In this document: positions 835 through 44,848 of the stretch, in pieces
Layout: every line of letters starts with the position of its first letter
Numbering within the stretch: the stretch's first letter is position 1
From: Mesotaenium endlicherianum
Lineage: Eukaryota
Direction of reading: 5' to 3'
DNA length: 63,591 bases
NCBI GenBank assembly: GCA_009602735.1
Contig: WELA01002119.1
Location: forward strand, 318,143-381,733
The notes under the pieces: model-generated
Told to the model about the DNA's origin: nothing
Seen by the model: only the letters and a program-made list of their open reading frames with translations
Databases searched by the model: none
Program-made: the position numbers and the translations under genes

Positions 835-1580
835 TGTAATGAATCAGTATATTAGTAGATATATTATTCATTTAAATAAAAATAGTTAATTTAGTTCAGC
901 CTGCTGAACTTTAGTTAGTAGTCAGTCTGCTGAACTTTAGTTAATAATCAGTCTGCTGGACTTTACATAATTATCAGTTTAATGACTCGGCCAAAAGCAG
1001 CAGGCTGAAATCAACTTAAGTCAGCTTGCTGACACATTCTTTGACAGCCAGCTGACTTCCGTGCTCGGTAGCAGCGAACTGCCTTGATATGCATCTAAGT
1101 ACCACCTGCTAGATGAATGGCCAGATGACATCCCCATGATGGATGGCTATTCGGGATGATGGGAGATGGCGGTGGATTTGGTTAACCGAGGTCCTACCAA
1201 CGTGGTTAACTCCCGGGTAGGCGGTGCCATCGCACTGACCGTTGAACAGTAAACTCATTCCATGTACATATGCTAGGCATTGCTCTCGAGTTCGGCATTC
1301 GGAAACGAGGCCAACTCTCTTGTACAGCTTACTGAGAGAGATCTGAATCCAAGGCGAGAAGCCATTGATACGCACTGTCTTCTAACCTTGCTTATGTATG
1401 AGTTTACTGATTTGCATCATTGATGCTAGTTTACTCGCATTTGACTTACGAGTATTATTCCCTGCTAGTGTATTGTCCTTTGCCGTTTAACTAGTTAACG
1501 GAAATACCATAAAGATTACTTGCTGATATAAAGATCTTTATTAATTGTTAATCGCCTATTTGGTAAGTCGATTCATTTCA
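835..1580 (+). repeat. 5' LTR of element A
   Basis: TGTAATG...ATTCATTTCA, followed by the PBS. Confidence 0.95.
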
Positions 1581-1581
1581 G

Positions 1582-1593
1582 TGGTATCGGAGC
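1582..1593 (+). promoter_or_regulatory. Primer binding site, initiator-Met tRNA type (TGGTATCGGAGC)
   Basis: 1 nt after the LTR end. One mismatch to the common plant iMet PBS TGGTATCAGAGC. Same site at 26733 and 38035. Confidence 0.88.
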
Positions 1594-1614
1594 AGTTATC
1601 ACAGTCTTCTTTGT

Positions 1615-3093
1615 ATGGTAAGGACAAGGTCTCAAACTAGCAACTCCCGAGACATGGAGAACCAGGATAACGAGAATGTCGAAAACCAGGCGGAAAGCCA
1701 TGTAGCGGGAAACCGTACCTATTCGGAAGCAGTAGCGGATACTGCAGCTAGGGAGGCAGCAGATGAGGCAGCTGCTATTGCCTCAGTCGCAGCTCAGCAA
1801 GCTGAGGAGGAGATAGCCAGACTAGAAGCTGAACAAGTAGCAAAGGCCGCTGAAGATATACAAAGGAGGGAAGGACAGCCAGCTGACGAGCGCACTGTTG
1901 AAGAACTTATGGCATCAAGGGCCAATGTTCTGAACCCACCTCCTGCCGTACAACTCAATGTACCCCTAGGTCAAATACGTGACCGGCTGAATGCGGCAGG
2001 AATTGCTGCTGCAGGAGCAAGAGGGATTGTTGAGGACACTACTCAGCGAGTAGATGCCAATGCTGCTGCTGCATTTGCTAATCTACCACCCCAAAATGTA
2101 GACTTGGGAGCATTGTTCGTTCAGATGCAGTCGCAAATGGCGACCATGTATCAGTCCCAGCAGGAGGACAAAAGAATCATAATGTCCCTACTCCGGGACA
2201 GAGACCAACTGGGGTCTCACACCACTAGTGGTGGTGGCCGAGGGCCTAGTAAGCCCAAGCCGAAACCTCCCCAGGACTATGATCCTGAGGGAAACAGAAA
2301 ATATTACCTGATCAAGTTTCTCGCGGATGTTGAGCAGTGGCTGGAGAACTACCCAGAACTGCAAGATTACGAGAAGGTCAGGCACACCGGTGCGCTACTG
2401 AAAGGCAGTGCCGCAGACTGGTGGCTTTACTGGAAGGAAGAGCGTAAGGCTCGGCAACTCGGTGACCCTACGTGGGTAGAGTTTGTCGAGAAGTTGCATG
2501 AGAAGTTTGATGTCATCAACCAGCAGGAGAAAGCTATCTATGCGATGATCTCCCTGACACTGAAGCAGACCACTTCAGTTGCTGAGTTTGCTCAAAAGTT
2601 CCAAGAGAACATGATGAAGCAGCCTGATTTGCCAGAACGGTATAGGATAGCATACTTCAGGTATGGCTTGAAATCCGAGGTCTCTGGTCATTTTGCTGAG
2701 AAAAAGTATGAGAAACTGGCTGACTTGATCCAGGATGCTGACGCCTGGGATCAGCAGCAGTTCAATCACAAGCGCCAGAGTAACGCTTTGGTGTCTAAGA
2801 TTGTCAAAAAGCCCCACGGTTCCTACAATGCAGTTGAAGGAGACCAGGCTGAGGATAATCAGGGTGATGAATATGAGTATGAGTACAATGCTATTCAGTC
2901 TAGAGGTAGAGGTGGTCCCTCTCGAGGTGGCTATGGAAGGGGTGGTGGTAGGACTAAGCCGAGACCAGCCTCAGCAAAATCTACTTGCTACCATTGTCAG
3001 CAGAAAGTCCATTACAGAGAACAGTGTCCGATTAGGCACCTGCCTAAGGTCGAGAGAAAAGACCAGCCTTTAAAAGACAGCAACAGTCAGTAA
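1615..3093 (+). CDS. gag: Gag of element A
   Basis: 492 aa. Retrotransposon gag core ([40 protein letters not shown]), RGG stretch and C-terminal CX2CX4HX4C knuckle. Confidence 0.95.
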
Positions 3094-3183
3094 TCCAGTC
3101 TACTGACTGTGAGGATGCTAGAGATAGTGAGTCGTCACTAGCTGCCCTCGTAGCAGGTATTATGGGTCCTGCTGAACTGGATT
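3069..3183 (+). promoter_or_regulatory. -1 ribosomal frameshift signal (U UUA AAA plus downstream stem/pseudoknot)
   Basis: X XXY YYZ heptamer in the gag frame at 3069-3075, then a 7-nt spacer and a perfect 10-bp stem (3083-3092/3101-3110). Pol is in the -1 frame and open across the site. Confidence 0.8.
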
Positions 3184-6100
3184 CACTATGCATGCCTGAC
3201 AAACAGATAAAGGAGACCATCAGTAATATAGACGTCCAGAGAGTGCACACTCTGGATGCTCTTGTTCCACCTGATGTCCAACATTTCTTTGCTACGTCAG
3301 GAGAACAATGCGAAAGTCAGGAAAAGACAGTCCCCCCTATCCTACTGCATTGCATGATTGCAGGTAGGAAGGTGAGGGCATTTGTTGACGGAGGGGCGTC
3401 ACATACTTTTATCCACAAGGACTTAGTTAAGCGGCTAAGGCTGCCTACTGTCACCCAAGGGAATAGAAAAATATTCCTTGGAGATGCCTCAAGTATCCCG
3501 GGAGGAGTTATAACCAAGCCTATTGAGGTCCAGTTAGGTTCTGGCATTGCAGTTCTAACTGAAACGCTTACATTTGAGGTACTCAACACTGGCTTTTATG
3601 ATCTCGTGCTAGGCAGGTCCTGGCTTAATAGACATCAAGCTGAAGTGTGTTGGAGCAGAGGTACAGTTAAAGTGAGAGGAGCCAGTGATGGGCAGACTGA
3701 CTTGGCACCCACCAGTGCTCTTCCTCTTGTCCTGTGTGGATGGCAAATGAAGGAAAAGAAGAGGCTTCCAGAAGGATGCAAGTTGCTGAATGCAATGGAG
3801 TTCGTCAAAAGCTGGAACCAGAAGGAAGACAGAATGTTCTGTCTGCTGCTAAGAGAGGTACCTCCTCAACCTGAAGAAGTGGTTGAGAAAAAGGTAAGCC
3901 CTCCGGAGCACCCTACTGCTGCAAAAATTGTTGCTCAGTACACTGATGTGTTTAACATGCCTCCAGGACTACCCCCTAAAAGGGAAGTAGATCATAGGAT
4001 TGATCTATTACCTGGTAGCCAGCCACCCTGGCAACGCACTTATGGCTTGTCTTATTTGGAGAGCGAGGAGTTGAAAACACAGATTGCAGAGCTGGAGGAA
4101 AATGGTTACATTTCTCCCAGTAAATCACCGTACGGCGCACCTATCCTATTTGTTAAGAAAAAGGATGGCAGTATGCGGATGTGTGTGGATTACAGAGCCC
4201 TGAACAGAATTACAGTAAAGAACAAGTATGCTTTACCCAGAATCGAGGACTTGCTTGATACCCTGTCTGGCGCTAAGGTGTTCAGTAAGATAGATCTCAA
4301 GAGTGGTTATCATCAAATCAGAATTGCTGAGGGGGATGAACACAAGACTGCTTTCCGCACACGTTATGGACACTATGAGTTCAACGTGATGCCATTTGGA
4401 CTGACTAATGCTCCTGCTACCTTTATGGGTGCTATGAATGACATTTTCAGACCTTATTTGGATAAGTTTGTGCAAGTTTTCCTGGATGATATTTTAATTT
4501 TCTCTAAAGATGAAGCTCAGCACACTGAACACTTAAAGAAAGTGCTGGACACTCTGCGGAAAAATCACTTGTATGCTAAAATGAGCAAGTGTGATTTCTT
4601 TAAGGAAAGTATTGAATTCTTAGGCCACGTTGTCAGTAAAGAGGGCATCAGTGTGGATCCTAAGAAAGTCCAGACCATAAGGGACTGGCCAGTACCACAG
4701 TCTGTCTCTGAAGTTAGATCCTTCCTCGGGTTGGCTAACTACTATAGGAGATTTATTGAGAATTATTCCACAAAGGCCAGTAAACTGACTGACCTTACTA
4801 AGAAAGACATCGGGTATGTGTGGGGGGAAGAGCAGCAGGCTGCCTTCCAGACCCTTAAAGATGCCCTTTGTTCTGCCCCAGTGCTAGCCGTGTATGACCC
4901 CAGCAAACCGGTGCAGGTGGTTACTGATGCCTCTGATTTTGCCATGGGTGCTATTTTGTTGCAGCCTGCTGACAAAACCACAAAGGATGGTAAGGTACGG
5001 CAGGAGTGGCATCCTGTGTTGTATGAGTCTATGAAATTTAATCCAGCGGAGATTAATTACTCAGTGCATGATAAAGAGCTGCTAGCTATCATTCATGTAC
5101 TCAAACAGTGGAGAGCATACTTACATGGTAAAGCTTTTAAGGTGATTACAGATCATCTAGCTCTGACCCACTTTCAGAAGAAGTCCAAGCTGTCGAGGAG
5201 GGAGAACCGCTGGAGCCAGATGCTGGAGCAGTTCCAAGTCCAGATCGACTACAAACCAGGGAAGTTGAATCCTGCTGATGCACTCTCTAGAAGACCTGAC
5301 TTGCAAGAAAGGAACTTTAGTCAGCATGCTGTAGATAAAGTCCTGTGTGCACTCACTTCACTAAAGGTGAAAAAGTCCTTCCTTGAACAACTTAGGAAAG
5401 CCTACCTTTCTGACCCAACATTTGAGCCCAGCCCCACTACTGGTGTGTGTCGTGCTACTGCACTCGGGTATAAGCTCAAGGGAGGGGTCTGGGTGACTGA
5501 AACCACTTCAGGCAGGCTGAAGCTGGTCATTCCTAATAACTTGGAAATAAGGTCTCTCTTACTGAGTCAAGCTCATGACAGTCTCCTGGGTGGACATTTG
5601 GGGCAGGCCAAAACTGTTGGCAAACTGGCAAAACATTATCATTGGGAGGGGTTACCCCGGGAGGTCTTGAAATATGTCAAGTCCTGTGACCAGTGTCAGA
5701 GAAATAAGTCTCGGCACACACCACCCGGAGGTCTCTTGCAACCGCTACCCATCCCAGCGGGACGCTGGGAAACTATATCCATGGACTGGGTGGTCTCACT
5801 ACCAAGAACTGCCAACGGGCATGATTCAATACTGGTAGTCGTGGATAAACTGACAAAAATGGTCATTTTTATCCCCACAACTGTCAAAGTGACTGCACTC
5901 GAAACAGCGAGACAGTTTTACAACCATGTAGTATGCCAACATGGGCTCCCTTCTAATATCATCTCAGACAGAGACTCAAAATTCACCTCTAAGTTCTGGA
6001 GAGCTTTAATGGGGTTAATGGGAGTCAAACAGCTGCTCAGCACAGCAAACCACCCTCAGACTGATGGGCAGACTGAAAGAACTAACCGAGTTCTGCAGGA

Positions 6101-6878
6101 GGTGCTGAGAGCATATATTAACCAAAAACAAGATAATTGGGATGACCTGTTGCCTCAAATTCAGTTTGCGGTCAACAGTGCGGTGCACGCGTCAACGGGC
6201 AAAACTCCTTTTGAACTCAGCCTGGGTAGAGTCCCTAAGTCTCCTCTAGATGTGCTAGGGGAATCTTTAACTCACCCTGAAGGGATTGACAACCCGGTCT
6301 CCCTCCAGTTAACTCAGGAGTTTGCTGACACCCTGTCAGAAGTCCAACGAAACTTGCACACGGCCCAAGAAAACCAACAAAAATACGCTAATCAACACCG
6401 TCGGGAACTGACATTTTCCAAGGGGGATTTAGTCAAACTGCATTCTCAGCACCTGTACCTCCCTGGTGTGGTCAAGAAAAAGCTTGGCCCTGTCTGGGTC
6501 GGTCCATATTCGGTGGTCCGTCGTGTCGGTCAGAATGCTTACAAACTGAACATGTCAGCTGAATACAAGGGGCACCCGGTCTTTAATGTCTCCTTCCTGG
6601 AACCGTACATCAAAGGTGATACACTGTTCACAGGTCGGTTCCCTGTCCAACCGGGACCGGTCCCCGCTGTCCGGGACGGCGACCCTGAGGAATATGAGGT
6701 CGATGAGATTTTAGACGCTCGCTCGGTCCGTCGATCGTCTAAATATGTCATGAAATACCTCATTCGATGGAAGGGTTACGATGCCTCTGGGGACACTTGG
6801 GAGTTTAAGGACCACTTGACCAATGCCAAAGGGGCGTTGACACGGTTCCACCTTCGGGCCGCTGGAGTCCCTCCATAA
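3162..6878 (+). CDS. pol: Pol of element A: protease, RT, RNase H, integrase, chromodomain
   Basis: Protease [45 protein letters not shown]; RNase H VTDASDFA; integrase H..H..C..C, SDRD, DGQTER; chromodomain [19 protein letters not shown]. The frame is open upstream to the frameshift site. Confidence 0.97.
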
Positions 6879-7145
6879 CTGTCATTTCAGTTGACACGGG
6901 AAGGTGACAGGCGGTCCTGTCTCCATTTAAGTTGGAGGGGAAAATATATGACAGTTAGTGAGCGAGAGCGATAAAAACACACTCATACGTTTATGTGTAG
7001 CGCATCGCAACTACGTCAACTTTTAGCAATCATCCTGTAAGGTAAACAGCAGCGAAGCCACTATACTAAATACTAACATACTTCCTGCAATCCCTATGAC
7101 AAAGGTCCATATCCTACTAACTTGTGCCCTGGTTACATGTGCAGG

Positions 7146-8822
7146 ATGGCGCCCACCACACAAAAGGAGGACAGAAAGCGCAAGGCAGAAGAAGCCAGGA
7201 GGACAATGGAGCAATACCAGAAGGAGCTGGCGGCGACGTCCCTCACCAGGAGAGAACAAGAAAGGGTCCGCAAGCAACAAGAGGCGGCAGAAGAGGCACA
7301 GAGGAAGAAGGATCAGGAAGCGGAAAACCTCAGGAAGGCTGAGGAGGAGAGACAGAAGAAACAGCAAGAAGAAGCGGCAGCGGCAGAAGAGGAGAAAAGA
7401 AAAAAGATTGAAGCGGACAGACAGAAGAGCTTGGCCACTTACAGGTATACTGTGGTGGGTGGCCAAAACTTCGATAACCTGAAGGAAGCATTGCTGGCAG
7501 CCCAGGAGATCAACAGGCTGGAACAGACAACACTGCTACAGAAGGAAGGAGCTACAGCACTGGACAGGTACATCGAGACACACACCGGCGTGGTCCTTTA
7601 CGAAGATTATGCTAAGATGGTGGGCTATACAGCAGAGCAGGCCCGGTATCTCGCAGATGATTCAGAGGACAAGCCGGTCCCCATACCGGGAATAGTGGGA
7701 GATCAGAGACTCATCCGGATGGTGAGCATGCGGCCCGATAGCTTTAAGGATACGGTATTCTACCTCACACTCCTGCCAGCTTACAATGAAGTTGAGAGAA
7801 GGAGCTGGGAGTACTTGGCCAGGGAAGCAGGACAGCAGATGTTCTCTCCCCACTGGTTCCCGTGTAAACTGAGGAAGGCTGAGCACGGACCCCAGTACTA
7901 CCAGCAGCCAACAGACTGGAGGTGGATGACCGTCACAAATAAGAAGCAGGAGTGTGACCGAGCCCAACCGGATGACTTCCACTATGGCCTAGACGGCTAT
8001 CTCATCCTACCACCTCACATTGCCCCTTGGGACCCCAGGCTGAATGGATGCCTGAGCAATATGAATGCAGAGACCAAGGAACATAGGAGGAGGGGAAGAG
8101 AGTACTTCTCTAAGGGAAAGCATGCCTTTGTCAAATGGGCAAAGAATGCAGGCCGGATAGATATCAGTAGGCTGAAGGCCAAGCAACCTCCAGCGCGCCC
8201 TAAGAAAGGGAGGTCGGTAGACTACTCCATGTCTACTAGGGAGCAGGACGACTTAGTGGACGAGACCCCTACTCTCTCCGAGGAGGAGGATGAGGAGGAT
8301 GAGGAAGAAGAACAAGGCAGAGGAGAAGCATCAGCAGCAGGTACTCAGGATACCCAGGGACAGGCAGTGGCACTTCCTAAAGAACCACGATCAGGTGTGT
8401 GGAATGTGATCCCCGTTATGGCGACAACTGGACCCCGCGCTCGCTCCCCCAGCCCACCTGCCCAAGCAGGGGAAGAAGCTGATCTGACGGTACTGGGCAG
8501 CAGACACAGACAGAAATCCCCAGAGGACAGGGGTGCCAGAAGAGGGACACGCGGGTGGGCCAGAGGTATGCCAGCCTCCCCCTCCGCTCAGGGGCATGTA
8601 CCTCTAGCCAATGTATTTCAGCATCCTACTGGAATGCCTGTCTATGTGGGAATCAACACCCAAGTGGTTGAAGAGCAGGCCACCATCCTCCGTTCTCCTC
8701 GAGGGCCAACTTTAGAGCAAACAGGGTTCTTTAGAAGGCCAGCTGACAGACCTAGAGGGCTGTCCAGATCTAGGTCCAGATCTCCGTCTCCTGACCCTGA
8801 AGCCCCAGGAACAACCCCTTAA
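7146..8822 (+). CDS. ORF3, accessory protein of unknown function (element A)
   Basis: Long intact ORF between pol and the 3' LTR, with probable ATG at 7146. Charged coiled N-terminus, conserved central domain, acidic/disordered C-terminus. Homologues in B, C and the old copy. Confidence 0.88.
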   Translation: MAPTTQKEDRKRKAEEARRTMEQYQKELAATSLTRREQERVRKQQEAAEEAQRKKDQEAENLRKAEEERQKKQQEEAAAAEEEKRKKIEADRQKSLATYRYTVVGGQNFDNLKEALLAAQEINRLEQTTLLQKEGATALDRYIETHTGVVLYEDYAKMVGYTAEQARYLADDSEDKPVPIPGIVGDQRLIRMVSMRPDSFKDTVFYLTLLPAYNEVERRSWEYLAREAGQQMFSPHWFPCKLRKAEHGPQYYQQPTDWRWMTVTNKKQECDRAQPDDFHYGLDGYLILPPHIAPWDPRLNGCLSNMNAETKEHRRRGREYFSKGKHAFVKWAKNAGRIDISRLKAKQPPARPKKGRSVDYSMSTREQDDLVDETPTLSEEEDEEDEEEEQGRGEASAAGTQDTQGQAVALPKEPRSGVWNVIPVMATTGPRARSPSPPAQAGEEADLTVLGSRHRQKSPEDRGARRGTRGWARGMPASPSAQGHVPLANVFQHPTGMPVYVGINTQVVEEQATILRSPRGPTLEQTGFFRRPADRPRGLSRSRSRSPSPDPEAPGTTP

Positions 8823-8920
8823 GGTGACACGCTGAAGAGGCAGTCAGTAAGGGAGGCTGGTCAGGTTCAGTTCCCTTATTTAAAATTTCTGCAGTTTAAT
8901 GTTGTCGAGGCGACAACAAG

Positions 8921-8935
8921 TTAAGTTGGAGGGAT
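8921..8935 (+). promoter_or_regulatory. Polypurine tract of element A
   Basis: TTAAGTTGGAGGGAT immediately before the 3' LTR, preceded by hairpin TGTTGTCG-AGG-CGACAACA. Confidence 0.85.
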
Positions 8936-9654
8936 TGTAATGAATCAGTATATTAGTGGATATAATATTCATTTAAATATAATAGTTAATTAAGTTCAGC
9001 CTGCTGAACTTTAGTTAATAGTCAGTCTGCTGGACTTTACATAATTATCAGTTTAATGACTCAGCCAAAAGCAGCAGGCTGAAGTCAACTTAAGTCAGCT
9101 TGCTGACACATTCTTTGACAGCCAGCTGACTTCCGTGCTCGGTAGCAGCGAACTGCCTTGATATGCATCTAAGTACGACCTGCTAGATGAATGGCCAGAT
9201 GACATCCCCATGATGGATGGCTATTCGGGATGATGGGAGATGGCGGTGGATTTGGTTAACCGAGGTCCTACCAACGTGGTTAACTCCCGGGTAGGCGGTG
9301 CCATCGCACTGACCGTTGAACAGTAAACTCATTCCATGTACATATGCTAGGCATTGCTCTCGAGTTCGGCATTCGGAAACGAGGCCAACTCTCTTGTACA
9401 GCTTACTGAGAGAGATCTGAATCCAAGGCGAGAAGCCATTGATACGCACTGTCTTCTAACCTTGCTTATGTATGAGTTTACTGATTTGCATCATTGATGC
9501 TAGTTTACTCGCATTTGACTTACGAGTATTATTTCCTGCTAGTGTATTGTCCTTTGCCGTTTAATTAGTTAACGGAAATACCATAAAGATTACTCGCTGA
9601 TATAAAGATCTTTATTAATTGTTAGTCGCCTATTTGGTAAGTCGATTCATTTCA
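8936..9654 (+). repeat. 3' LTR of element A
   Basis: Direct repeat of 835-1580, followed by TSD CCTTT. Confidence 0.95.
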
Positions 9655-10858
9655 CCTTTGATAACCTTTAGGAAGCATTACTGGCAGCTCAACAGATCAA
9701 CAAGCTGAAACAGACAACACTTCTACAGAGGGAAGGAGCGGGAGCACTAGATAGGTACATTGAAACACACACTGGTTTGGTCCTCTACGAAGATTATGCC
9801 AAGATGGTTGGCTATACAGCAGGGCAGGCTGGGTACCTTGCACCTGATTTGGAGAACAAGCCAGTTCCAGTACCGAGAATAGTGGGAGACTAGAGACTTA
9901 TCGGGATGGTGAGCATGCGGCCCGATAGCTTTAAGGATACGATATTCTACCTCACACTATTGTCAGCTTACAGTCAAGTTGAGAGGAGGAGCTGGGTGTA
10001 CTTGGCCAAGGAAGTAGGACAGCAGATGTTCTCTCCCCATTGATTCCCTTGTAAGCTGAAAAAGGCCGAGCATGGACCACAGTACTACCAGCAGCCCACA
10101 GACTGGAGGTGGATGACCGTCACCAACAAAGAGCAGGAGTGTGACCGAGCCCATTCAGACGACTTCCACTATGGACTAGACGGCTACCTCATCCTACCAC
10201 CTCACATTGCCCCTTGGGACCCCTGGCTGAATGGCTGCCTAAGTAATATGAATGCAGAGACCAAAGAGCACAGGAGGAGGGGGAGAGCCTACTTCTCTAA
10301 GGGAAAGCATGCCTTTGTCAAATGCGGGAAGAATGCAAGCCAAATAGATATCAGCAGGTTGAAAGCAAGCAACCTCCAGCTCGCCCTAAGAAAGCAAGAT
10401 CAGTAGATTTCTTCATGTCTACCAGGGAGCAGGATGCCTTAGTGGACGAGACTCCTACCCTCTCAGAGGAGGAAGATGAGGAGGATAAGGAAGAAGAACA
10501 AGGCAGAGGAGAAGCATCGGGAGCTGGTACTCAGGAGACCCAGGGGCAGGCAGGTGCAGGCCCTTCTAAGGAGCCAAGATCAGGTGTATGGAATGTGACC
10601 CCGGTCATGGAGGCAACAAGACCCCGCACTCACTCCCCCAGCCCACCTGTCCAAGCAGGGGAAGAAGTTGATCTGACTGTACTTGGCAGCAGACAAAGGC
10701 AAAAAAGCCCAAAGGACAGGGGTGCCAGAAGAGGGACACGCGGGGTGGTCAGAGGTATGCCAACCTCCCCCTTCGCTCGAGGACATGTACCTCTTGCCAA
10801 TGTATTTCAGCATCCTACTGGAATGCCTGTCTATCTGGGGATCAACATCGAGGTGGTT

Positions 10859-11584
10859 TGAAAGGGGCAAAGTGTCCTAGTGGAAGCGTAGTAACTCACG
10901 AGGGAAGGAACTAGTTGCAATCATACGAAAGAGTGCAGCGGCATATTGCTAAGAAAGCTTAGGAAAATTACTTGAAATTTTGAGTGGCAAGAAACTGCTC
11001 ACAAATAATGTAGGATAAAAGGCCTTGTCATTACAAACCCGTAGAAATTTACAGAAGTGAAAACTCATAAGAAACAAAGAAGTTATGCCTAAGAGCTCCT
11101 CTCTAGGAGGAAGCTACGGATTTTCCTAAGTGTTCGTCAAATCGTCCCCTCCAGAATATTCGTGAGTAAGCCAGATCAGTCTCATCTGACGTGTCGGGTC
11201 GATTTGACGTCCACATACATGCATCGAAATATCTAGAAGATACTAACTTAGACGCGCTAGGCTAATCCGAAACTTCTAGGTAGATCGACCTAGTCGGCAC
11301 TTCGCGTCAGCCAAACTTACGTGAAGGTTCGAATTCACTCTAACGACCCAGATCGCTCGACGCTGTCGGTCAATCCGACGGTCGCGCTCACCGCGAATTA
11401 AGGACAGTCGTCAACCGACCTCAAAACTAATTAAACTTCGGAAATCCATAACTCACTTAATACTTGACCAATTTTGACAAACTTTATATCAAAATGATCA
11501 CAAAAATGCACTCTTCACTTCTATGCAATCAAAACATACTTTCATAAAACTCAAAAATGCACTTTGTAAACCTATGACCTTACA
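10859..11584. mobile_element. Solo LTR of an unrelated LTR family
   Basis: TGAAAGG...CCTTACA termini with TSD TGGTT (10854-10858, 11585-11589). It interrupts the old ORF3, which resumes exactly afterwards. No coding domains seen. Confidence 0.85.
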
Positions 11585-11972
11585 TGGTTGAAAAGCACGC
11601 TACAACCCTTCGTTCTCCTCGAGGTCCAACTTTAGAACAAACAAGGTTCTTTAGAAGGCCAGCTGACAGACCTAGAGGGCTGTCCAGATCTAGGTCCAGA
11701 TCTGAGTCTCCTGATCCTGAAGCCCCAGGAACAACCTAGACATCAAAATATTCTCCAGTCAAGCCTTGCTGGATGTCTCTCTGTCTGCAACCCACAACGG
11801 CAGTGGACTGAGGGTGGAGGTGATAGCCACTGTCACTAGTAATCCCCACAGCTAGGCAACAGTGTTGAAGCAAGAGACAAGCGGTGGGGGAGGTTAGTCC
11901 TGTTAAGTTCCTTGACAAGACACTTCTACAATTTAATGTTGTCGAGGGGACAACAAGTTAAGTTGGAGGGAT

Positions 11973-15589: not shown

Positions 15590-16730
15590 TTGTGTGGGAC
15601 GGGCAGGTGCAGCCGCCCGCCCCTTGCCTTCTTGTGTCGGGGCGGGCGGGCTGGTTGCTGCAGGCAGTTGCTCCCGCCCGCCCCTCGTGTGTTTGTGCTT
15701 GTGTGGGGCGGGCGGGATCAGCAGCCCGCCCCTTGTGTGTATGTGTTTGTGTGGGGCGGGCGGAATCAGCAACTCGCCCCTTGTGTGCTCGTGTGGGGCG
15801 GGCGAGCCTGCTGCAGCAGGCAGCTGCTCCTGCCCGCCCCTTGTGTGTTTGTGCTTGTGTGGGGCGGGCGAGATCAGCAGCTCCCCCCTTGTGTGTATGT
15901 GTTTGTGTGGGGCGGGCGAAAGCAGCAGCCGCCCCTTGCGTGCTTGTGTGGGGCGGGGGGGCCTGTTGTTGCAGGTATTTGCTCCTGCCCGCCCCTTCTG
16001 TGTTTGTGCTCGTGTGGGGCGGGCGGGAGCAGCAGTGTGGGGCGGCCGGGAGCAGCAGTCTGCCCTTGTGTGCTCGTGTGGGGCGGGCGGGCCTGAAGCT
16101 GCAGGCAGCTGCTCCTGCCAGCCCCTCGTGTGTTTGTGCTTGTGTGGGGCGGGCGGGAGCAGCAGCCCGCCCTTGTGTGCTCGTGTGGGGCGGGCGGGCC
16201 TGCTGGTGCAGGCAGCTGCTCCTGCCAGTCCCTCGTGTGTTTGTGCTTGTGTGAGGCGGGCGAGATTAGCAGCCCGCTCCTTGTGTATATGTATTTGTGT
16301 GGGGCGGGCAGAAGCAGCAGCCCGCCCCTTATGTGCTCGTGTGGGGTGGGCGGGCCTGTTGCTGCAGGCAGCGGCTCCCGCCAGTCCCTTGTGTGTTTGT
16401 GCTTGTGTGGGGCGGGCGGGATCAGCAACCCGCCCCTTGTGTGTTTGTGTTTGTGTGGGGCGAGCATGAGCAGCAGCCCGCCCATTGTGTGCTCGGGAGG
16501 GGCGGGTGGGCCTGCTGCTGCAGGCAGCTGCTCCTGCCAGCCCCTCTTGTGTTTGTGCTTGTGTGGGGTGGGCGGGATCAGCAGCTCGCCCCTTGTATAT
16601 ATGTGTTTATGTGGGGCGGGCAGAAGCAGCAGCCCGCCCCTTGTGTGCTCGTGTGGGGCGAGCGGGCCTGCTGCTGCAGGCAGCTGCTCCTGCCCGCCCC
16701 TTGTTGCTCGTGCTTGTGTGGGGCGAGAGG
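15590..16730 (+). repeat. GC-rich tandem hairpin array (about 45-65 bp units)
   Basis: Repeated TGTGTGGGGCGGGC-[variable loop]-GCCCGCCCCTTGTGTG units. This array generates the many Cys/Gly/Ala-rich spurious ORFs. Confidence 0.9.
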
Positions 16731-16976: not shown

Positions 16977-18028
16977 ATGGACCCTTGCAGTGCAACAACA
17001 AAGATTTTTACTGTCTTAGCTCTCCTCATTGTCATATTTGCGGTTCAACAGTGGGGCTCCATACAGCAAGCTTTTGGTGAAGTCCTCAGAAACACCACTC
17101 ATGAGTTAGACATGGCCGTTGAGAGGCAAGCTAGGGATCGATTGCAGAGATTTTTACAGTTCACTATGCAACATACTATGCTATGTTATCATGTTAAGGT
17201 TGGGAAGAAGAAGCGTAAGCATCGTGAGGTGTATGTGTATCCTAGGGACTCAACATGGTTTGAATACTTGGTGCTCACTCAATGGGAAACACTACGATGG
17301 AGAAGTTTGATGACTTTGAGCAGCTTCATGGATGGCAAGGCGTTGCTGGTGCCATTGACTGCACCCATATCAAGATCAAAAGACCATATGGGGTGGCAGG
17401 TGGGTGCTACCGCGACAGAAAAGGTGACTATAGTATCATTTTGCAAGCAATTATAGATTCCAAGTGCCGATCCTTAAGCGTTTATGGTGGGTGGCCTGGG
17501 TCTGTTCATGATTCTCGCGTTTTTAAAGCATCTCCTACACATTTGGCCTATGTGGCATATACCCATGTGCTGGCAAGTACCCCTCATGTGCAAATCAAGG
17601 ATGGACATCTCGTTAGACCATATATTTTAAGGGATGCTGGGTATCAACTAATGCCTTCGAACATTACACCATACGATAAGGTCAAGTGCCAAGAGGATGC
17701 CTTACGTCAGGCATTCAATTATGAGCATTCTAGTCAAAGAATGGCGGTAGAGAGGACCTTTGGTGTTTTCAAAAATGTGTGGCGTTTGTTTGGTGGTGTA
17801 GACAGGTGCGTAAAGTACAATACGAAGTCTATAAGCGTCATTTTGATGGCTGGTTGCATCTTGCACAATTGGCTGATAGACATTAAAGAACTAGACGTAG
17901 AAAGCTACACCTTACATGCTGAACAGGCGGTGCCTGGGCGTTGTGACGCACAAGAAGCTGTAATAGCCAAAGGTAGTATAGTGAGGGACAAGCTGCAAGA
18001 TGCATTCTGTGAGGCTCGTGTTGTGTAG
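16977..18028 (+). pseudogene. Harbinger/PIF DDE transposase, internally deleted and frameshifted
   Basis: GAIDCTHI, YRDRKGDYSIILQAIID, GWPGSVHDSRVF, ILRDAGY, FNYEHSSQRMAVERTFGVFKNVW, GCILHNW. The N-terminal part (VYPRDSTWF..W..LRWR) is in another frame, and the HTH segment expected between them appears missing near 17305. Confidence 0.9.
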
Positions 18029-19517: not shown

Positions 19518-21389
19518 ATGCAGTTGAGAAGTGGAAGACTCTACTACCCTGTGGAGCCTGCGGAAGGTTCTGATTCAAGCCAGAGTCCACGAGGAAGTGA
19601 GACATCTGAGCACACGGATAACCTGTGGAGTGAGCAACCGTCGAGAGACGAGTCTTGCCATACTGCCACGAACGGTGAGAATCCGTATAACGCGCAATCC
19701 TTTGTACCCAATTTGGGCAGAGAGCACAACGTGTGGGATAAAGATAGTGAGTCTTGGTCACCACTCGAAATGACTGGTGATAATAAGGATGAAAATCCTA
19801 AGTTCAAGCTGTCTACAAAGTGTTTTAGTGGACGAACCAGTGGAAATAGTCTCACTTTCGAAGAGTTTGATGAGATCTATTGGGCTGACTTCTTTGAGAA
19901 AATTCGAAAGGATTCTTCTTACACTCAGTCAGTCGCTTTTATAAGCTTGGTTCAGTACTTGGACAAGGATGCCTTGTTGCTGTATCGCCAATTTCGGAAG
20001 GATGAGAACCTTATCCAAGAATGGGCGTTTGACGAGCAAAAGAAGGCGAGGGATTTGAAAATCCAGAAAGAGGCTGCGAAAGCCCGCCTGTCCGCTTTGT
20101 CATCAGGAAGAGCGATACCTGCTGCACCTGTTGAGAGCGTAGACTTAGCTGCACTAACACAAGAATTAACAGATGCCATGAAGCAACTCACCGAGGGTCA
20201 GCAGCGAGCGGCTACTCGAGATGATGATGCTGGATCTGTCGTAGAATTGCGTAAAGTGTATGAAAAATTGTCTGAAAAGATTGCTAATGCTCAGGAACGA
20301 GTAACACGCATAGCTGCACCTTTTACATGGCAGCATGGTGATAGTGTCACCACGGAAGCAAGCCATGCGCAAGCGTTGGCTAGTTGCCGTAGGGATATGG
20401 AGGCTGGGGATGACCAGTTAGACTCTGAGCACTGTCTGCGTCGTTTCTTTAAGTTGCTTGAAGCAACATTCCCAGAGGATCGCAGTCATAAAGTGCACCG
20501 CTATGTGCATTTTGTCCGTCGGAAGAACGAGACAGTGATGGAGGTCAAATCCAGATTGGTAGACCTTGCCAAGAAGGCAGGAATCTATGAGCCTAGGATT
20601 GTGGCTGACAAATTCTTATTGTGTCTGGGTAAAGACACAGATTGGGAGGTCAGGCCGCACCTATTTGCGAAACGCAGAATCGACTGGAACATCGACGAGG
20701 CTGCTGAAATAGCACGCAATGTCGAGGAAGGTAAAGTCTGGTGCAAGGAGGCTTCCAGGACGCTTATGGCTCCTGAGAAAAGGGAGGAATCCTTTCAGCC
20801 TAAGGCCAATAGCTCTAATTTTCAATTTAAGAAAAAGAGCGGGTCTTTCAATAGGTTTGCTAAGCACGCCAACACCGCTGAGACAGCAGAGGGCTGTTGG
20901 AATTGCGGGAAACCAGGACATCAGAAGAGAGGTTGTCCGTACCCGGATGCTAAGCAATTGTCTGCTAGCAAGGCGCAGGTATGCGCACATTGCAGTAAAA
21001 AGGGACACTCAGAATATGAGTGTTGGTCCAAGAACCCAAATCTGAAACCACCATGGGCTAATGCTGCCAAGAAAGAGGCGGATAAAGGTAAGAAACGGGA
21101 GAGAGATAATTATGGTAACCGGAAGGGTAACCAGAAGTATGATGCTATGAGTGCAGAGATTGCAGAGTCGAAAGCTCAATTTGCAAGACTAAGTGTGCCT
21201 AGTGTCTACTATGATGCAATTGTGGCCAAAAAGACCGTCTGCAAAGGCGAGAAGCTGACGCCTGAGAAGGCCGTGGCTGCAACGGCTGCGGAGCGCGCAG
21301 ATCATGACCGTCTGGTTCCAAGAAGTGCTGGGAAGCTTCCTCAGACCTTTTGGATCACTCTCAATGAGAACGAGATTGCGCAGCTATGA
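19518..21389 (+). CDS. gag: Gag of the DNMT-bearing element (two zinc knuckles)
   Basis: MQLRSGR start; CWNCGKPGHQKRGC and CAHCSKKGHSEYEC. The frame continues past the TGA at 21387 into the protease. Confidence 0.85.
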   Translation: MQLRSGRLYYPVEPAEGSDSSQSPRGSETSEHTDNLWSEQPSRDESCHTATNGENPYNAQSFVPNLGREHNVWDKDSESWSPLEMTGDNKDENPKFKLSTKCFSGRTSGNSLTFEEFDEIYWADFFEKIRKDSSYTQSVAFISLVQYLDKDALLLYRQFRKDENLIQEWAFDEQKKARDLKIQKEAAKARLSALSSGRAIPAAPVESVDLAALTQELTDAMKQLTEGQQRAATRDDDAGSVVELRKVYEKLSEKIANAQERVTRIAAPFTWQHGDSVTTEASHAQALASCRRDMEAGDDQLDSEHCLRRFFKLLEATFPEDRSHKVHRYVHFVRRKNETVMEVKSRLVDLAKKAGIYEPRIVADKFLLCLGKDTDWEVRPHLFAKRRIDWNIDEAAEIARNVEEGKVWCKEASRTLMAPEKREESFQPKANSSNFQFKKKSGSFNRFAKHANTAETAEGCWNCGKPGHQKRGCPYPDAKQLSASKAQVCAHCSKKGHSEYECWSKNPNLKPPWANAAKKEADKGKKRERDNYGNRKGNQKYDAMSAEIAESKAQFARLSVPSVYYDAIVAKKTVCKGEKLTPEKAVAATAAERADHDRLVPRSAGKLPQTFWITLNENEIAQL

Positions 21390-28244: not shown

Positions 28245-28312
28245 TCCAGTCTACTGACTGTGAGGATGCTAGAGATAGTGAGTCGTCACTAGCTGCCCTC
28301 GTAGCAGGTATT

Positions 28313-32036: not shown

Positions 32037-32426
32037 CTGTCATTTCAGTTGACACGGGAAGGTGACAGGCGGTCCTGTCTCCATTTAAGTTGGAGGGGAA
32101 AATATATGACAGTTAGTGAGCGAGAGCGATAAAGGGACAGTTACGTGAATCCTAAATGTCAGCATAGTGACAGAGGGGACAGCCTGGCCCACATAAAGCA
32201 CCTTGAGCTGAAGGAAAAAGGGCCTCGCACAACACTACATCACTTAACTCACCCTACAACACAATCATACGTTAATGTTTAGCGCATCGCAACTACGTCA
32301 ACTTTTAGTAATCATCTTGTAAGGTAAACAGCATCGAATCCACTATACTAATACTAACATACTTCCCGCAATTTCTATGACAAAGGCACATACCCTACTA
32401 ACTTGTGCCCTGGTTACATGCACAGG

Positions 32427-34130
32427 ATGGCGCCCACCACACAAAAGGAGGACAGAAAGCGCAAGGCAGAAGAAGCCAGGAGGACAATGGAGCAATACCA
32501 GAAGGAGCTGGCGGCGACGTCCCTCACCAGGAGAGAACAAGAAAGGGTCCGCAAGCAACAAGAGGCGGCAGAAGAGGCACANAAACAAGAGGCGACAGAA
32601 GAGGCACAGAGGAAGAAGGATCAGGAAGCGGAAAACCTCAGGAAAGCTGAGGAGGCGAGACAGAAGAAACAACAAGAAGAAGCGGCAGCGGCAGAGGAGG
32701 AGAAAAGGAAAAAGATTGAAGCAGACAGACAGAAGAGCTTGGCCACTTACAGGTATACTGTGGTGGGTGGTCAAAACTTCAATAACCTGAAGGAGGCATT
32801 GCTGGCAGCCCTGGAGATCAACAGGCTGGAACAGATAACACTGCTACAGAGGGAAGGAGCTGCAGCACTGGATAGGTACATCGAGACACACATTGGTGTG
32901 GTCCTCTACGAGGATTATGCCAAGATGGTGGGCTATACAGCGGAGCAGGCTCGGTATCTCGCACATGATTCAGAGGACAAGCCGGTCCCCATACCGGGAA
33001 TAGTGGGAGATCAGAGACTCATCCGGATGGTGAGCATGCGGCCCGATAGCTTTAAGGATACGGTATTCTACCTCACACTCCTGCCAGCTTACAATGAAGT
33101 TGAGAGAAGGAGCTGGGAGTACTTGGCCAGGGAAGCAGGACAGCAGATGTTCTCTCCCCACTGGTTCCCGTGTAAACTGAGGAAGGCTGAGCACGGACCC
33201 CAGTACTACCAGCAGCCAACAGACTGGAGGTGGATGACCGTCACAAATAAGAAGCAGGAGTGTGACCGAGCCCAACCGGATGACTTCCACTATGGCCTAG
33301 ACGGCTATCTCATCCTACCACCTCATTTTGCCCCTTGGGATCCCAGGCTGAATGGATGCCTGAGCAATATGAATGCAGAGACCAAAGAGCATAGGAGGAG
33401 GGGAAGAGACTACTTCTCTAAGGGAAAGCATGCCTTTGTCAAATGGGCAAAGAATGCAGGCCGGATAGATATCAGCAGGCTGAAGGCCAAGCAACCTCCA
33501 GCGCGCCCTAAGAAAGGGAGGTCGGTAGACTACTCCATGTCTACTAGGGAGCAGGACGACTTAGTGGACGAGACCCCTACTCTCTCCGAGGAGGAGGATG
33601 AGGAGGATGAGGAAGAAGAACAAGGCAGAGGAGAAGCATCAGCAGCAGGTACTTAAGATACCCCGGGGCAGACAGGGGCGCTCCCTAAAGAACCACGATC
33701 AGGTATTTGGAATGTGATCCCCGTTATGGCGACAACTGGACCCCGCGCTCGCTCCCCCAGCCCACCTGCCCAAGCAGGGGAAGAAGCTGATCTGACTGTA
33801 CTGGGCAGCAGACACAGGCAGAAATCCTCAGAGGACAGGGGTGCCAGAAGAGGGACACGCGGGTGGGCCAGAGGTATGCCGGCCTCCCCCTCCGCTCAAG
33901 GGCATGTACCTCTAGCCAATGTATTTCAACATCCTACTGGAATGCCTGTCTATGTGGGGATCAACACCCAAGTGGTTGAAGAACAGGCTACCATCCTTCG
34001 TTCTCCTCGAGGCCCAACTTTAGAGCAAACAGGGTTCTTTAGAAGGCCAGCTGACAGACCTAGAGGGCTGTCCAGATCTAGGTCCAGATCTCCGTCTCCT
34101 GACCCTGAAGCCCCAGGAACAACCCCTTAA
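32427..34130 (+). pseudogene. ORF3 of element B (A-type), premature stop at 33654
   Basis: Near-identical to 7146-8822, with TAA replacing a CAG codon. Confidence 0.9.
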
Positions 34131-43183: not shown

Positions 43184-44848
43184 ATGACTCAAAAGTTGGA
43201 ACTCAAGCGGAAGAGAAGGGCGGAAGAGGCACGTGCTGAATACTTGCAATTTCGTGGAGACATCGAATCATCTTCCATCTCCGCTCGGGAATCACAACGA
43301 CTCCAACAACAGCGGGAGGCACAGAAGAAGAAGGAGGAGGAGGAACACGCACTGAGGCAGGAAGAAATGGACAGAAAAGCCGCAGAGGAGGTCAAGAAAG
43401 CAGAGGAGGAGAGGCAAGCTGAGGAGAAGCGGAAGCAGCAGGCTGAAGAAGAAGAACAGAGGAGAATCAGCAGCTACCGCTACACGGTGCTGGGCAAGGG
43501 CTTTGATCTACTGGAGGAGGCCTTCAAGTATGCCCAGAGAAGTCGCAGTGAGTCGCAGAAGGAAATCCTCCAGAAGGAAGGGGAGACATCCGAAAACTTT
43601 GACAAGTATATAGAGGTCGGCACAGGGCTCCTCCTCTACCACGATTACGCCAGGATGGTAGGATATACCATCGGAGAGGCCAAGGCAATGGCCCAGGTGA
43701 ACGAAGCAGGAGCTGTCTCGATTCCTGGTATCTGGGGGGCAGATAGGGTCATCAGGATGATCCCCATGGACGCGGACAGCTTCAAGGACTCAACACCCCA
43801 CAACAGGTTCAAGGCCATGTACAATGAGGTGGAGAGGAGGAGCTGGGAATTCTTGGCCAGGGAAACCAGTCAGCTGGACTTTGCAGGGCACTGGTACCCT
43901 TGTACTCTTAAAAAGACAGACGCTGCCTTCTTCCAAAAGCCCACTGATTGGCGGTGGATGACCATCAACATGAGGGACCAGCAGAATGACAGGGCGACGG
44001 ATGAGGATTTCCTGACAGACCTAAAGGGGAACATAGTATTGCCCCCTCACATTGCGGCTTGGGACCCAAGATTGGATGGAGTCAGAGACTGCATGAGCCA
44101 AGAGATGCAGGGGGACAGAAGCAGGGCCCGAGAGTCATTCTCCAAAGGGAAGCACGCTTATGCCAAATGGGCAAGTAAGCAGGGGGAAAAGGACCTCTAT
44201 GCGGTCCGGACTCAGCAGCCCCCACCAGCACCCAAAAGGGGAAGGTCAGTAGGATATTCTTTTTCTCGGGAAGAGCTGGAGCAGCTGACAGAAGGGACCC
44301 CAGAAGTCTCAGAGGAACCCGGGGACGGAGAGGAGGAGGAGTCAGAGGAAGACGAGGAGGAAGGCGAGGAGGAGGACACTAGCCCCGCCGTGAACTTAAC
44401 GCCTGCCACATCCCCTGTAAGGGAGAAGACGGGGTTGGCCCTGCAGCAACTCGCTGAAGAGGAGAATATCACTTGGCTGGGGACTGCCAGAGGATCGACC
44501 CCATCTCCAGGCAAGGAGACCCAGTCAGACAGGGCAGACAGGAGGGCTGCTCGGGAGATAGCTAGAGGCCTGCCAGCATCTCCTTCGCAGAGAGGGCATG
44601 TACCCTTGGCTCATGTCATGCAACATCCTTTTGGGATGCCGGTATACGTACCTGTCAGTTTGAGGGCTGCCCAGAAGAAGGCTGCCTCCCTTCAGTTTCA
44701 AACTGTGCAGGAGGAAACAGCCCAGTTACTGCGTTCTCCGCGGGGTTTTTACACAGAACCTCCCTCTCTGACAGGCTTCAGAAGACCCCAAGACAGGAGG
44801 AGGTCTGGCTCCCCTGAGTATAGGGCCTCAAAGACATCTCCCTCCTAA
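43184..44848 (+). CDS. ORF3 of element C (divergent C-type)
   Basis: Intact ORF sharing YRYTV, MVGYT, DSFKD, YNEVERRSWE.LARE, PTDWRWMT, LPPHIA.WDPRL, FSKGKHA and GHVPLA.V.QHP.GMPVYV with A-type ORF3. Confidence 0.88.
   Translation: MTQKLELKRKRRAEEARAEYLQFRGDIESSSISARESQRLQQQREAQKKKEEEEHALRQEEMDRKAAEEVKKAEEERQAEEKRKQQAEEEEQRRISSYRYTVLGKGFDLLEEAFKYAQRSRSESQKEILQKEGETSENFDKYIEVGTGLLLYHDYARMVGYTIGEAKAMAQVNEAGAVSIPGIWGADRVIRMIPMDADSFKDSTPHNRFKAMYNEVERRSWEFLARETSQLDFAGHWYPCTLKKTDAAFFQKPTDWRWMTINMRDQQNDRATDEDFLTDLKGNIVLPPHIAAWDPRLDGVRDCMSQEMQGDRSRARESFSKGKHAYAKWASKQGEKDLYAVRTQQPPPAPKRGRSVGYSFSREELEQLTEGTPEVSEEPGDGEEEESEEDEEEGEEEDTSPAVNLTPATSPVREKTGLALQQLAEEENITWLGTARGSTPSPGKETQSDRADRRAAREIARGLPASPSQRGHVPLAHVMQHPFGMPVYVPVSLRAAQKKAASLQFQTVQEETAQLLRSPRGFYTEPPSLTGFRRPQDRRRSGSPEYRASKTSPS

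What the first reader, a model, noticed from the sequence alone, without database searches (positions are those of the whole stretch)
7146..8822. Conserved non-env third gene in a chromovirus
Seen: every family-1 copy has a ~560-aa sense ORF between pol and the 3' LTR. It has a charged coiled N-terminus with basic NLS-like runs, a ~240-aa W/Y/H-rich core (~7440-8140), an acidic tract and a conserved GHVPLANVFQHPTGMPVYV island. There is no signal peptide or transmembrane stretch, so it is not env. I recognise no domain. Motif-level conservation against the diverged C-type copy implies purifying selection. Inference: a nuclear accessory factor, for example an anti-silencing or trans-activating protein analogous in role to the VANC proteins of VANDAL transposons.
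Basis: partly seen in the sequence, partly recalled or inferred. Interest (0 to 1): 0.8.

Follow-up and report, generated by a model that had tools for sequence, protein, structure and literature searches.

The report
Swappable orphan third gene in chromovirus
A family of jumping genes carries a third, non-envelope gene that is under strong selection, has no detectable relatives and exists in two very different swappable versions; it is likely made from a spliced message and likely helps switch on the element's own promoter, though neither step has been shown.

Summary
The ORF is real: 7146-8822, 558 aa, between pol and the 3' LTR of a chromodomain-bearing Ty3/gypsy element, with no membrane segment. 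It is open in 2 of 4 assessable copies, not in all. dN/dS is 0.14 in two pairs (pol 0.19-0.21). No homolog was found in any library searched, and the fold is unresolved.

New here: (1) All three full-length copies start at a branch-point plus CAG|G-ATG acceptor-like site, found nowhere else in the window. (2) Copy C is about 95% identical to A1 across LTR, gag and pol but carries a 43%-identical ORF3, so the gene moves as a cassette in two deep versions. (3) Each LTR carries an array of CAG-N4-CTG palindromes, partly tandem-duplicated.

Six RNA subsamples showed patchy reads and no splice joint, which is inconclusive. Best reading (0.4): a nuclear trans-activator or anti-silencer acting on the LTR array, like foamy-virus Tas or VANC. 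Binding is untested, and the cassette swap argues against tight protein-motif co-evolution. Extra ORFs are a known kind; this protein family appears undescribed. The scan had not noted this sequence before.

The parts
7146..8822 (+). ORF3, A-type, 558 aa, intact (copy A1)
   Evidence: dN/dS 0.14 against A2 and against the old copy
7146..7430 (+). Charged N-terminus (aa 1-95), probable coiled coil; RKRK at 7173-7184
   Evidence: composition; coiled coil and nuclear signal are inferred
7431..8165 (+). Conserved core (aa 96-340), 52% identical to the C type over aa 98-335; aa 94-216 modelled as hairpin-helix, hairpin, two-helix unit
   Evidence: model pLDDT 60.7; whole-core model pLDDT 41
8280..8312 (+). 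Acidic tract
   Evidence: also present in C (alignment)
8592..8648 (+). Conserved island in the low-complexity C-terminus
   Evidence: aa 471-505 are 69% identical A1 vs C, pN/pS 0.30
7117..7148 (+). Branch-point-like CTAAC, AG-free stretch, acceptor-like CAG|G directly before the ATG
   Evidence: 3 matches in the window, all at ORF3 starts, 0.18 expected; splicing not observed
1562..1568 (+). Donor-like GGTAAGT near the end of the 5' LTR; candidate partner of the acceptor
   Evidence: present in 8 of 8 family LTRs; use is inferred
7040..7047 (+). Alternative donor-like site about 100 nt before the ATG (C has one at 43073)
   Evidence: use is inferred
6929..6940 (+). Internal copy of the polypurine tract just after pol, at the left edge of the swapped cassette
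   Evidence: loose ends at 6940 in runs X1 and X16
8923..8935 (+). 3' polypurine tract; the right edge of the cassette is at about 8896
835..1580 (+). 5' LTR of A1, with one extra 26-bp motif unit; target-site duplication CCTTT at 830-834 and 9655-9659
8936..9654 (+). 3' LTR of A1
   Evidence: 12 mismatches in 719 columns to the 5' LTR
8997..9155 (.). Array of six CAG-N4-CTG palindromes near the LTR start; a seventh at 9399
   Evidence: 7 observed vs 0.17 in 2000 dinucleotide shuffles, none reaching 7
1615..3093 (+). gag
   Evidence: PF19259, PF03732
3162..6878 (+). pol: protease, RT, RNase H, integrase, chromodomain (about 6693-6851)
   Evidence: chromodomain best hit CDYL, E 9e-11
32427..34130 (+). 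ORF3, A-type, copy A2 (element 26018-34963); stop at 33654, one N at 32582
43184..44848 (+). ORF3, C-type, 554 aa, intact (element 37313-45654)
9655..11736 (+). Broken ORF3 of an older copy (further piece at 760-834; gap at about 10859-11562)

Best explanation
ORF3 is a selected accessory gene of this chromovirus family, and its protein likely works in the nucleus as a trans-activator or anti-silencer of the element's own LTR promoter. Shown: the ORF, its purifying selection, its two deep versions on a shared backbone, the acceptor-like site at its start, and the palindrome array in the LTR. Inferred, in order: (a) a spliced subgenomic RNA joins a donor near the end of the 5' LTR, or one about 100 nt upstream, to the acceptor at 7143-7144, placing the ATG second in the new exon; (b) the basic N-terminal run imports the protein and the charged helix pairs it; (c) the folded core binds the CAG-N4-CTG palindromes as a dimer; (d) the acidic tract and the conserved C-terminal island recruit host activators or chromatin factors. 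This would matter to an element whose aromatic-cage chromodomain likely aims it into silenced chromatin.
For: Selection: A1-A2 dN/dS 0.14 (33.5 synonymous changes in 394 sites vs 15.5 in 1277; bootstrap pN/pS 0.08-0.25; Fisher p 5e-11). A1-old core 0.14 (p 4e-18). Synonymous sites are saturated against C, with pN/pS 0.45. Pol controls are 0.19-0.21. Acceptor pattern: 3 matches in 63.6 kb on both strands, all at ORF3 starts, against 0.18 expected and at most 2 in 200 shuffles, although the spacer is only about 59% identical between A1 and C. Read-through from pol is blocked by in-frame stops in the spacer. Anatomy shared by both versions: basic run at aa 8-13, folded core, acidic tract, 7 SP dipeptides in the last 190 aa, conserved island. 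LTR array: 7, 6 and 3 sites in the A1, C and old 3' LTRs against about 0.16 expected; it includes a 26-27-bp tandem repeat that gained one unit in the A1 5' LTR. VANC targets also accumulate by tandem-repeat formation (PMC5735166, passages). The subdomain model shows two hairpin-helix units. Its top structural rows are a zinc-finger-type fold (Z 3.4, rmsd 1.7, 40 aligned) and Kaiso fingers (Z 2.7, rmsd 3.4, 48 aligned); these are below any useful threshold and count only as compatible.
Against: No DNA-binding domain was assigned: no Foldseek match at E<=0.001, best Z 3.4 and 2.0. The core's net charge is 0 and -3. Two versions 43% identical serve LTRs only 6-7% apart with the same motif, unlike the matched change of VANC proteins and their motifs. 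Short repeats in LTR promoters are commonly host transcription-factor sites (recalled), so the array needs no element-encoded binder. Motif sites inside gag-pol are no better conserved than their surroundings (3 of 60 vs 5.0%; 2 of 72 vs 1.7%). Their enrichment fell from 12 vs 4.8 to 12 vs 6.7 (21 of 1000) once codon-junction dinucleotides were kept. No splice joint at either acceptor and no continuous ORF3 coverage appeared in six RNA subsamples. The family is as CpG-depleted as its neighbours or more so (CG o/e 0.40-0.48 in its ORFs vs 0.59-0.64 in the two other gypsy elements), which gives no sign of lasting escape from methylation.
Confidence: 0.4

Rival explanations
1. ORF3 acts on RNA. 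Made from the spliced message, it would help export or protect the unspliced genomic RNA, or blunt small-RNA silencing, in the manner of retroviral Rev or viral silencing suppressors.
For: A spliced accessory message creates the need to export unspliced RNA (inference). A1 ends in an RS/SP-rich tail (6 RS, 7 SP in the last 190 aa). Antisense RNA over the integrase region is present in several runs, so double-stranded RNA is plausible. A silencing-modulating role has been proposed for Tekay 5' extra ORFs (PMC11728184, passages).
Against: The RS run is not conserved in C (2 RS). No RNA-binding fold or family was matched.
Confidence: 0.2
2. ORF3 is a cofactor of the particle or pre-integration complex. 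It would supply nuclear import or tether integration to chromatin together with the chromodomain.
For: Constraint is as strong as on pol (0.14 vs 0.19-0.21; the A1-A2 difference is not significant, p 0.39), whereas Arabidopsis accessory proteins evolve faster than core ones (PMC13547354, passages). Two family insertions lie 75 bp apart in ORF3 of an older copy. An import role is discussed for extra ORFs (PMC7264820).
Against: Versions 43% identical work with Gag and Pol that are 88-96% identical at protein level, which fits a tight interface poorly. Same-family nesting between pol and the 3' LTR is common in plant LTR elements (PMC6911290, passages).
Confidence: 0.2
3. ORF3 is a counter-defence adaptor that binds a host silencing protein without reading DNA sequence. 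The two versions would persist because each evades a different host variant or acts in a different cell state.
For: Deep cassette dimorphism on a shared backbone. The C-type junctions and core also occur in other runs: loose ends at 6940 and 8896 in X1; in X5 a contig spanning 42756-43188 with 29 differences and a 430-nt core contig with 2. A short conserved island in a disordered tail suits a docking motif (inference).
Against: There is no excess of amino-acid change within the A type, which an arms race might produce. No partner is identified.
Confidence: 0.15
4. ORF3 is a recently captured host fragment or a chance frame with no role in transposition.
For: It is broken in 2 of 4 copies, and little RNA covers it.
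Against: dN/dS of 0.14 between element copies 3% and 13% apart, and an open frame kept at synonymous saturation. Pol is also broken in A2 and C.
Confidence: 0.03

Closest known systems
Extra sense ORFs between pol and the 3' LTR in plant LTR retrotransposons (eORF-3'F; PMC6317226 passages and supplement 3; PMC7264820 parts 1-2 of 3)
   Same: Position, orientation, length over 250 codons, no conserved domain, unknown function. A spliced message is reported for barley Bagy2.
   Different: Among chromoviruses the REXdb table lists eORF-3'F only for Tekay (18% of 782); none for Chlamyvir (44), Tcn1 (1500), Galadriel, Reina, CRM or unclassified. This protein has no transmembrane segment and matches no Pfam family, so none of plant mobile domain, Transposase_28 or Athila ORF1.
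VANC proteins of VANDAL (MuDR) transposons (PMC5735166, passages)
   Same: Element-encoded accessory protein; a family-associated short motif amplified by tandem repeats in non-coding DNA.
   Different: VANC is in a DNA transposon, is structurally related to MAIN (PMC13547354) and has proven binding and demethylation. Here there is no sequence match, no binding data, and the motif did not change with the protein.
Foamy-virus Tas/Bel1 (PMC517496, PMC4929722; search listing and start of abstract only)
   Same: Accessory protein proposed here to act as Tas does, by binding response elements in the LTR promoter; the 3' position of tas is recalled.
   Different: A vertebrate retrovirus with env and a proven internal promoter. 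No sequence similarity was detected and no internal promoter was shown here.
Maize Grande GENE23, Retand TRP28 ORFs, Tekay 5' extra ORFs (PMC7264820; PMC11963269 and PMC11728184, passages)
   Same: Conserved non-env accessory ORFs with nuclear location or nuclear signals; regulatory role proposed and untested.
   Different: These are antisense 3' ORFs in non-chromoviruses, or 5' ORFs in Tekay. No TRP28 match here.
Bdelloid rotifer non-env ORF3s (PMC5408684, passages)
   Same: Family-specific, modular third ORFs that are gained, lost and shared; ORF3s are described as typically expressed from spliced messages.
   Different: Those carry recognisable GDSL or DEDDy enzyme domains; this one has none.

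Membership tests
Chromovirus (Ty3/gypsy) | LTRs with TG..CA ends, 5-bp target duplication, PPT, order gag-PR-RT-RH-IN | tested here: met
   (duplications CCTTT, GCTGT, GTGAC in 3 of 3 full elements)
Chromovirus (Ty3/gypsy) | Chromodomain at the integrase C-terminus | tested here: met
   PF00385 E 2e-08; CDYL, MPP8, Clr4 and HP1 hits with the aromatic positions aligned
Chromovirus clade (Chlamyvir, Tcn1, Galadriel, Tekay) | RT/RH/IN phylogeny against reference elements | not tested
   The REXdb sequence file was too large to read. The aromatic cage and a tRNA-Met-like primer site (identification recalled) fit Chlamyvir or Galadriel better than Tcn1.
eORF-3'F class | Sense ORF of at least 250 codons between pol and the 3' LTR | tested here: met
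   558 and 554 aa
env / env-like | Transmembrane segment(s) | tested here: not met
   maximum 19-residue hydropathy 0.73 and 0.88
env / env-like | Spliced subgenomic message | tested here: inconclusive
   signals conserved; no joint listed in 6 low-coverage RNA subsamples
VANC | Sequence or structural homology to VANC / MAIN / plant mobile domain | tested here: inconclusive
   no Pfam or sequence hit; models too weak to exclude a fold
VANC | Short motif amplified in tandem in the element's non-coding DNA | tested here: met
VANC | Motif changes together with the protein | tested here: not met
   the same motif array under A- and C-type ORF3; one pair of versions only
VANC | Sequence-specific DNA binding and loss of methylation on cognate copies | not testable with these tools
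   needs EMSA/ChIP and methylomes
Tas/Bel1-like transactivator | Binds LTR response elements and activates the promoter | not testable with these tools
   needs a reporter assay
TRP28 / Athila ORF1 / plant mobile domain extra ORFs | PF04195, PF03078 or PF10536 domain | tested here: not met
   Pfam scans of both proteins and their pieces gave none of these

The most novel reading that the evidence does not exclude
A chromovirus that lands in silenced chromatin encodes, from a spliced message, its own sequence-specific DNA-binding activator of a new fold. The protein reads a palindrome array in the LTR and is kept in the population as two ancient, freely swappable cassettes. It would be a retrotransposon counterpart of VANC and of foamy-virus Tas.
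Probability: 0.25. Interest if true: 0.8.

Novelty: new variant of a known kind. Interest (0 to 1): 0.5.

Why it matters
Thousands of extra ORFs are catalogued in plant LTR retrotransposons (3372 Ty3/gypsy elements in PMC6317226), and that paper asks whether they have any function. This one is shown to be under selection as strong as pol. It also comes with a testable set: a predicted splice junction, a 10-bp candidate site arrayed in 160 bp of LTR, and two natural protein versions on nearly the same promoter. If binding and activation hold, it would show a retrotransposon encoding its own LTR activator or anti-silencer, which my paper searches did not find described for plants or algae. If they fail, it remains an undescribed, selected protein family and a clear case of accessory-gene swapping.

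Tried and rejected
Homolog searches, all blank. 5.8-billion-protein search with core aa 95-345: 0 of 3592 candidates. Same with the 3-row alignment at E<=1: 0 of 2649. phmmer over 1.84 billion representatives: 0. Metagenome and viral contigs: 0 of 212 and 0 of 57 pattern matches confirmed; prokaryote genome contigs were not scanned. ESM Atlas: best scores 0.84, none, 0.77. Pfam, PHROGs and NCBIfam gave only sub-threshold rows (Borrelia_P83 on the charged N-terminus, Obc1_C E 0.0018 in A only, DUF6462, tape measure, SsgD), none shared by both versions. PDB sequences: HNF6 at E 0.3, treated as chance. The host is poorly represented in these libraries: 0 of 10 window proteins were found exactly and the Harbinger transposase's best full-length hits were about 33-42% identical, so the blanks do not prove novelty.

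Folds. The whole-core model (pLDDT 41) gave only helix-pair matches, Z<=6.2, and was discarded. My by-eye guess of a MerR/excisionase-type or NUMOD1-type helix-turn-helix (names recalled) was not supported: such rows appear only at E 0.5-7 and Z 2.0, and were not recovered. Residues 217-340 were never modelled alone. A homodimer prediction could not be run because the queue was full.

Motif in coding DNA. A refined form with T or A flanks scored 10 vs 4.2 (0 of 1000) and 71 vs 1 sites in family vs other DNA. The refinement was chosen after seeing the hits and the family copies are not independent, so I do not lean on it. CAG-N1-CTG is enriched as well (14 vs 6.7).

Methylation footprint in LTR pairs: transitions at 11 of 147 CG, 5 of 221 CHG and 19 of 523 CHH sites; there was no other family to compare, so it is uninformative.

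RNA. No listed holder was on record as RNA. A divergent promoter at the C-type start was considered and dropped, because an opposite-strand joint (41621-43246) from a rearranged copy explains part of those reads.

No whole genome was held, so no copy census was possible. Paper searches that found no description of this protein or of a 3' accessory gene in an algal chromovirus.

Full report
Setting. The window is a nest of transposons. The finding lies in element A1 (835-9654), with TG..CA LTRs that differ at 12 of 719 columns, a CCTTT target duplication, gag, and a pol ending in a chromodomain. Five family elements are visible: A1, A2 (26018-34963), C (37313-45654), an older broken copy that A1 sits inside, and the 3' end of a fifth (1-759). 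No whole genome was held. The host was not identified. A neighbouring gypsy element carries a C5 methylase domain in pol (PF00145, E 1e-11), like KnitGypsy-Dnmt3 of the charophyte Klebsormidium (PMC5890265, passages), and earlier unreviewed scan notes on this genome call it green-lineage. A streptophyte alga or early land plant is therefore an inference.

The ORF. It runs 7146-8822 and encodes 558 aa; the other five frames are closed. It has a charged N-terminus with a basic run, a core at aa 96-340, an acidic tract, and a P/S/T/G-rich tail holding one conserved island. Hydropathy never exceeds 0.73 (A1) or 0.88 (C) over 19 residues. It is open in 2 of 4 copies that include the region.

Selection. 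By Nei-Gojobori counting, A1 vs A2 gives pS 0.085 and pN 0.012 (dN/dS 0.14), and A1 vs the old core gives pS 0.35 and pN 0.062 (0.14). The old copy's aa 342-510 give 0.30. A1 vs C is at synonymous saturation (pS 0.75) with 49% identity over aligned codons, 52% in the core and 69% around the island. Pol controls are 0.19-0.21; gag segments are 0.26-0.55 on few changes. Fisher tests give p 5e-11 and 4e-18. These are pairwise values from four related copies, not a tree-based estimate.

Two cassettes. C is 88-99% identical to A1 in 300-nt bins across LTR, gag and pol, apart from a deletion in pol, but 53-64% identical from the 6835 bin to the 8635 bin. LTR distances place C (0.06-0.075) closer to A1 and A2 than the old copy is (0.11-0.12). 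ORF3-core distances say the opposite (C 0.41-0.43, old 0.13). ORF3 and its flanks were therefore exchanged by recombination. The left edge follows an internal copy of the polypurine tract at 6929 and the right edge is about 40 nt before the LTR. C-type junction sequence appears as loose ends at 6940 and 8896 in run X1, which may be the source sample, and at 6940 in X16. In X5 one contig crosses from pol into the C-type start with 29 differences, and another matches 430 nt of the C core with 2 differences. The C arrangement is thus not an assembly chimera of this window.

Expression signals. The pattern CTAAC, 15-35 nt, CAGGATG occurs 3 times on both strands of the window, at the starts of ORF3 in A1, A2 and C. 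Shuffles gave a mean of 0.18 and a maximum of 2 in 200. I drew the pattern from these starts, so the telling point is its survival in the diverged C spacer, not the count in A1. The acceptor is preceded by an AG-free stretch of 39 nt in A1 and A2 and 45 nt in C. Donor-like sites lie at 1562 (8 of 8 LTRs) and about 100 nt upstream of the ATG. In-frame stops exclude read-through from pol.

RNA test. Three RNA runs were laid on A1 (X10, X13, X16; 1036-1388 million letters each) and three on C (X14, X17, X11; 1220-1874 million). They carry another organism code than X1, and most reads are 90-99% alike, so they come from other copies. Over A1 ORF3, X10 gave 0-0.14-fold and X16 0-2.3-fold. X13 gave 0-2.8-fold up to 8151 and 8-21-fold beyond, with 18 reads leaving for unrelated sequence at 8568. 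Over C ORF3, sense-strand depth in the stranded runs was 0-5.8-fold and patchy. No joint to 7145 or 43183 was listed; joints need 3 reads, and 26 and 98 loose-end rows were not shown. Gag and most of pol were as patchy. The family looks largely silent in these samples, and the splice prediction is neither confirmed nor refuted.

Homologs and fold. Every sequence and family search was blank or sub-threshold, with the caveat that this host is poorly covered. The three-row core model had pLDDT 41. The aa 94-216 model had pLDDT 60.7, with 30 of 123 residues at 70-90: hairpin, long helix, hairpin, two short helices. Structural searches gave no significant match. The best was Z 3.4 (rmsd 1.7, 40 aligned) to the AFV1 p06 zinc-finger fold. 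This is compatible with small nucleic-acid-binding units and shows nothing more.

LTR array. The first 300 nt of the LTR hold six or seven CAG-N4-CTG palindromes and none with spacers of 2, 3, 5 or 6. Whole 3' LTRs hold 7 (A1), 6 (C) and 3 (old) against about 0.16 expected; 0, 0 and 3 of 2000 shuffles reached those counts. Part of the array is a 26-27-bp tandem repeat, so the sites are not fully independent, and the A1 5' LTR has one extra unit. In A1 coding DNA the motif occurs 12 times against 6.7 expected under a junction-preserving synonymous shuffle (21 of 1000); the two other gypsy elements show no excess (3 vs 2.7; 0 vs 0.3). The coding sites are not better conserved than background. 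The array marks a protein-binding promoter element by inference. Whether the binder is ORF3 or a host factor is open.

Mechanism. I put 0.4 on a nuclear activator or anti-silencer acting on the array, 0.2 on an RNA-level factor, 0.2 on a particle or integration cofactor, 0.15 on a sequence-blind adaptor, and 0.03 on no function. The strongest point against the lead reading is that ORF3 was swapped without a change of motif. It survives if both cores, 52% identical, read the same site.

What is known. Extra ORFs are common and mostly unexplained (PMC6317226, passages; PMC7264820, parts 1-2 of 3). In that survey's supplement 3, read whole, 3' sense ORFs occur in 18% of Tekay elements and in no other chromovirus clade; its element-level table and sequence file were too large to read and could hold individual cases. 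A figure legend in PMC2864245 marks an additional ORF of unknown function among fungal and spikemoss elements (passages), position not seen. Passages of PMC12859917 and PMC13269885 added nothing on retrotransposon anti-silencers. The scan has noted other non-env third genes in other genomes, with recognisable JmjC or J domains (unreviewed), but not this sequence.

Verdict. The feature is real, selected and apparently an undescribed protein family, in a known category of extra ORFs. The cassette dimorphism, the conserved acceptor and the LTR array make it unusually testable. Function remains inferred. Interest 0.5.

Noticed in passing
window 19518-26017 and 34964-37182: A second gypsy element carries a C5 cytosine methylase domain in pol (PF00145; interrupted by a stop near 22550) and a PHD-like finger after the integrase. 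It resembles KnitGypsy-Dnmt3 (PMC5890265). Family elements A2 and C both appear to be inserted in or beside it.
   Followed up: partly
window 6352-6642 and 42334-42624: An antisense RNA covers the 3' half of integrase and skips 289 nt (CT..AC on the + strand, i.e. GT..AG antisense): 8 reads in X13, 9 in X14, 4 in X17, and one X5 contig.
   Followed up: no
window 759/760 and 834/835: Two family elements are inserted 75 bp apart inside ORF3 of an older copy of the same family.
   Followed up: partly
window 6929-6962; 42910-42981: An internal polypurine-tract copy follows pol (two in C), then a conserved TGACAGTTAGTGA. It could be a relic of an older element end or a second plus-strand priming site.
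   Followed up: partly
window 3066-3093: gag and pol frames overlap in a -1 relation, with TTTAAAA shortly before the gag stop, a candidate frameshift site.
   Followed up: no
window 15590-16725, 17282-18028, 54702-55197, 55663-56481: Harbinger-type transposase (+) and Myb/SANT gene (-), with 156-bp tandem arrays in inverted orientation 38 kb apart.
   Followed up: no
window 47197-51860 (-): A third gypsy element (gag PF03732/PF19259, pol with assembly gaps) with no third ORF of 150 aa or more seen.
   Followed up: no
window about 32105-32260 and 10859-11562: A2 has an insertion of about 124 nt in the pol-ORF3 spacer; the old copy has an unrelated stretch of about 700 nt inside its ORF3.
   Followed up: no
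window 44852-44884: Two further CAG-N4-CTG sites, 23 bp apart, lie in the C cassette's 3' untranslated part; the A cassette has none there.
   Followed up: no
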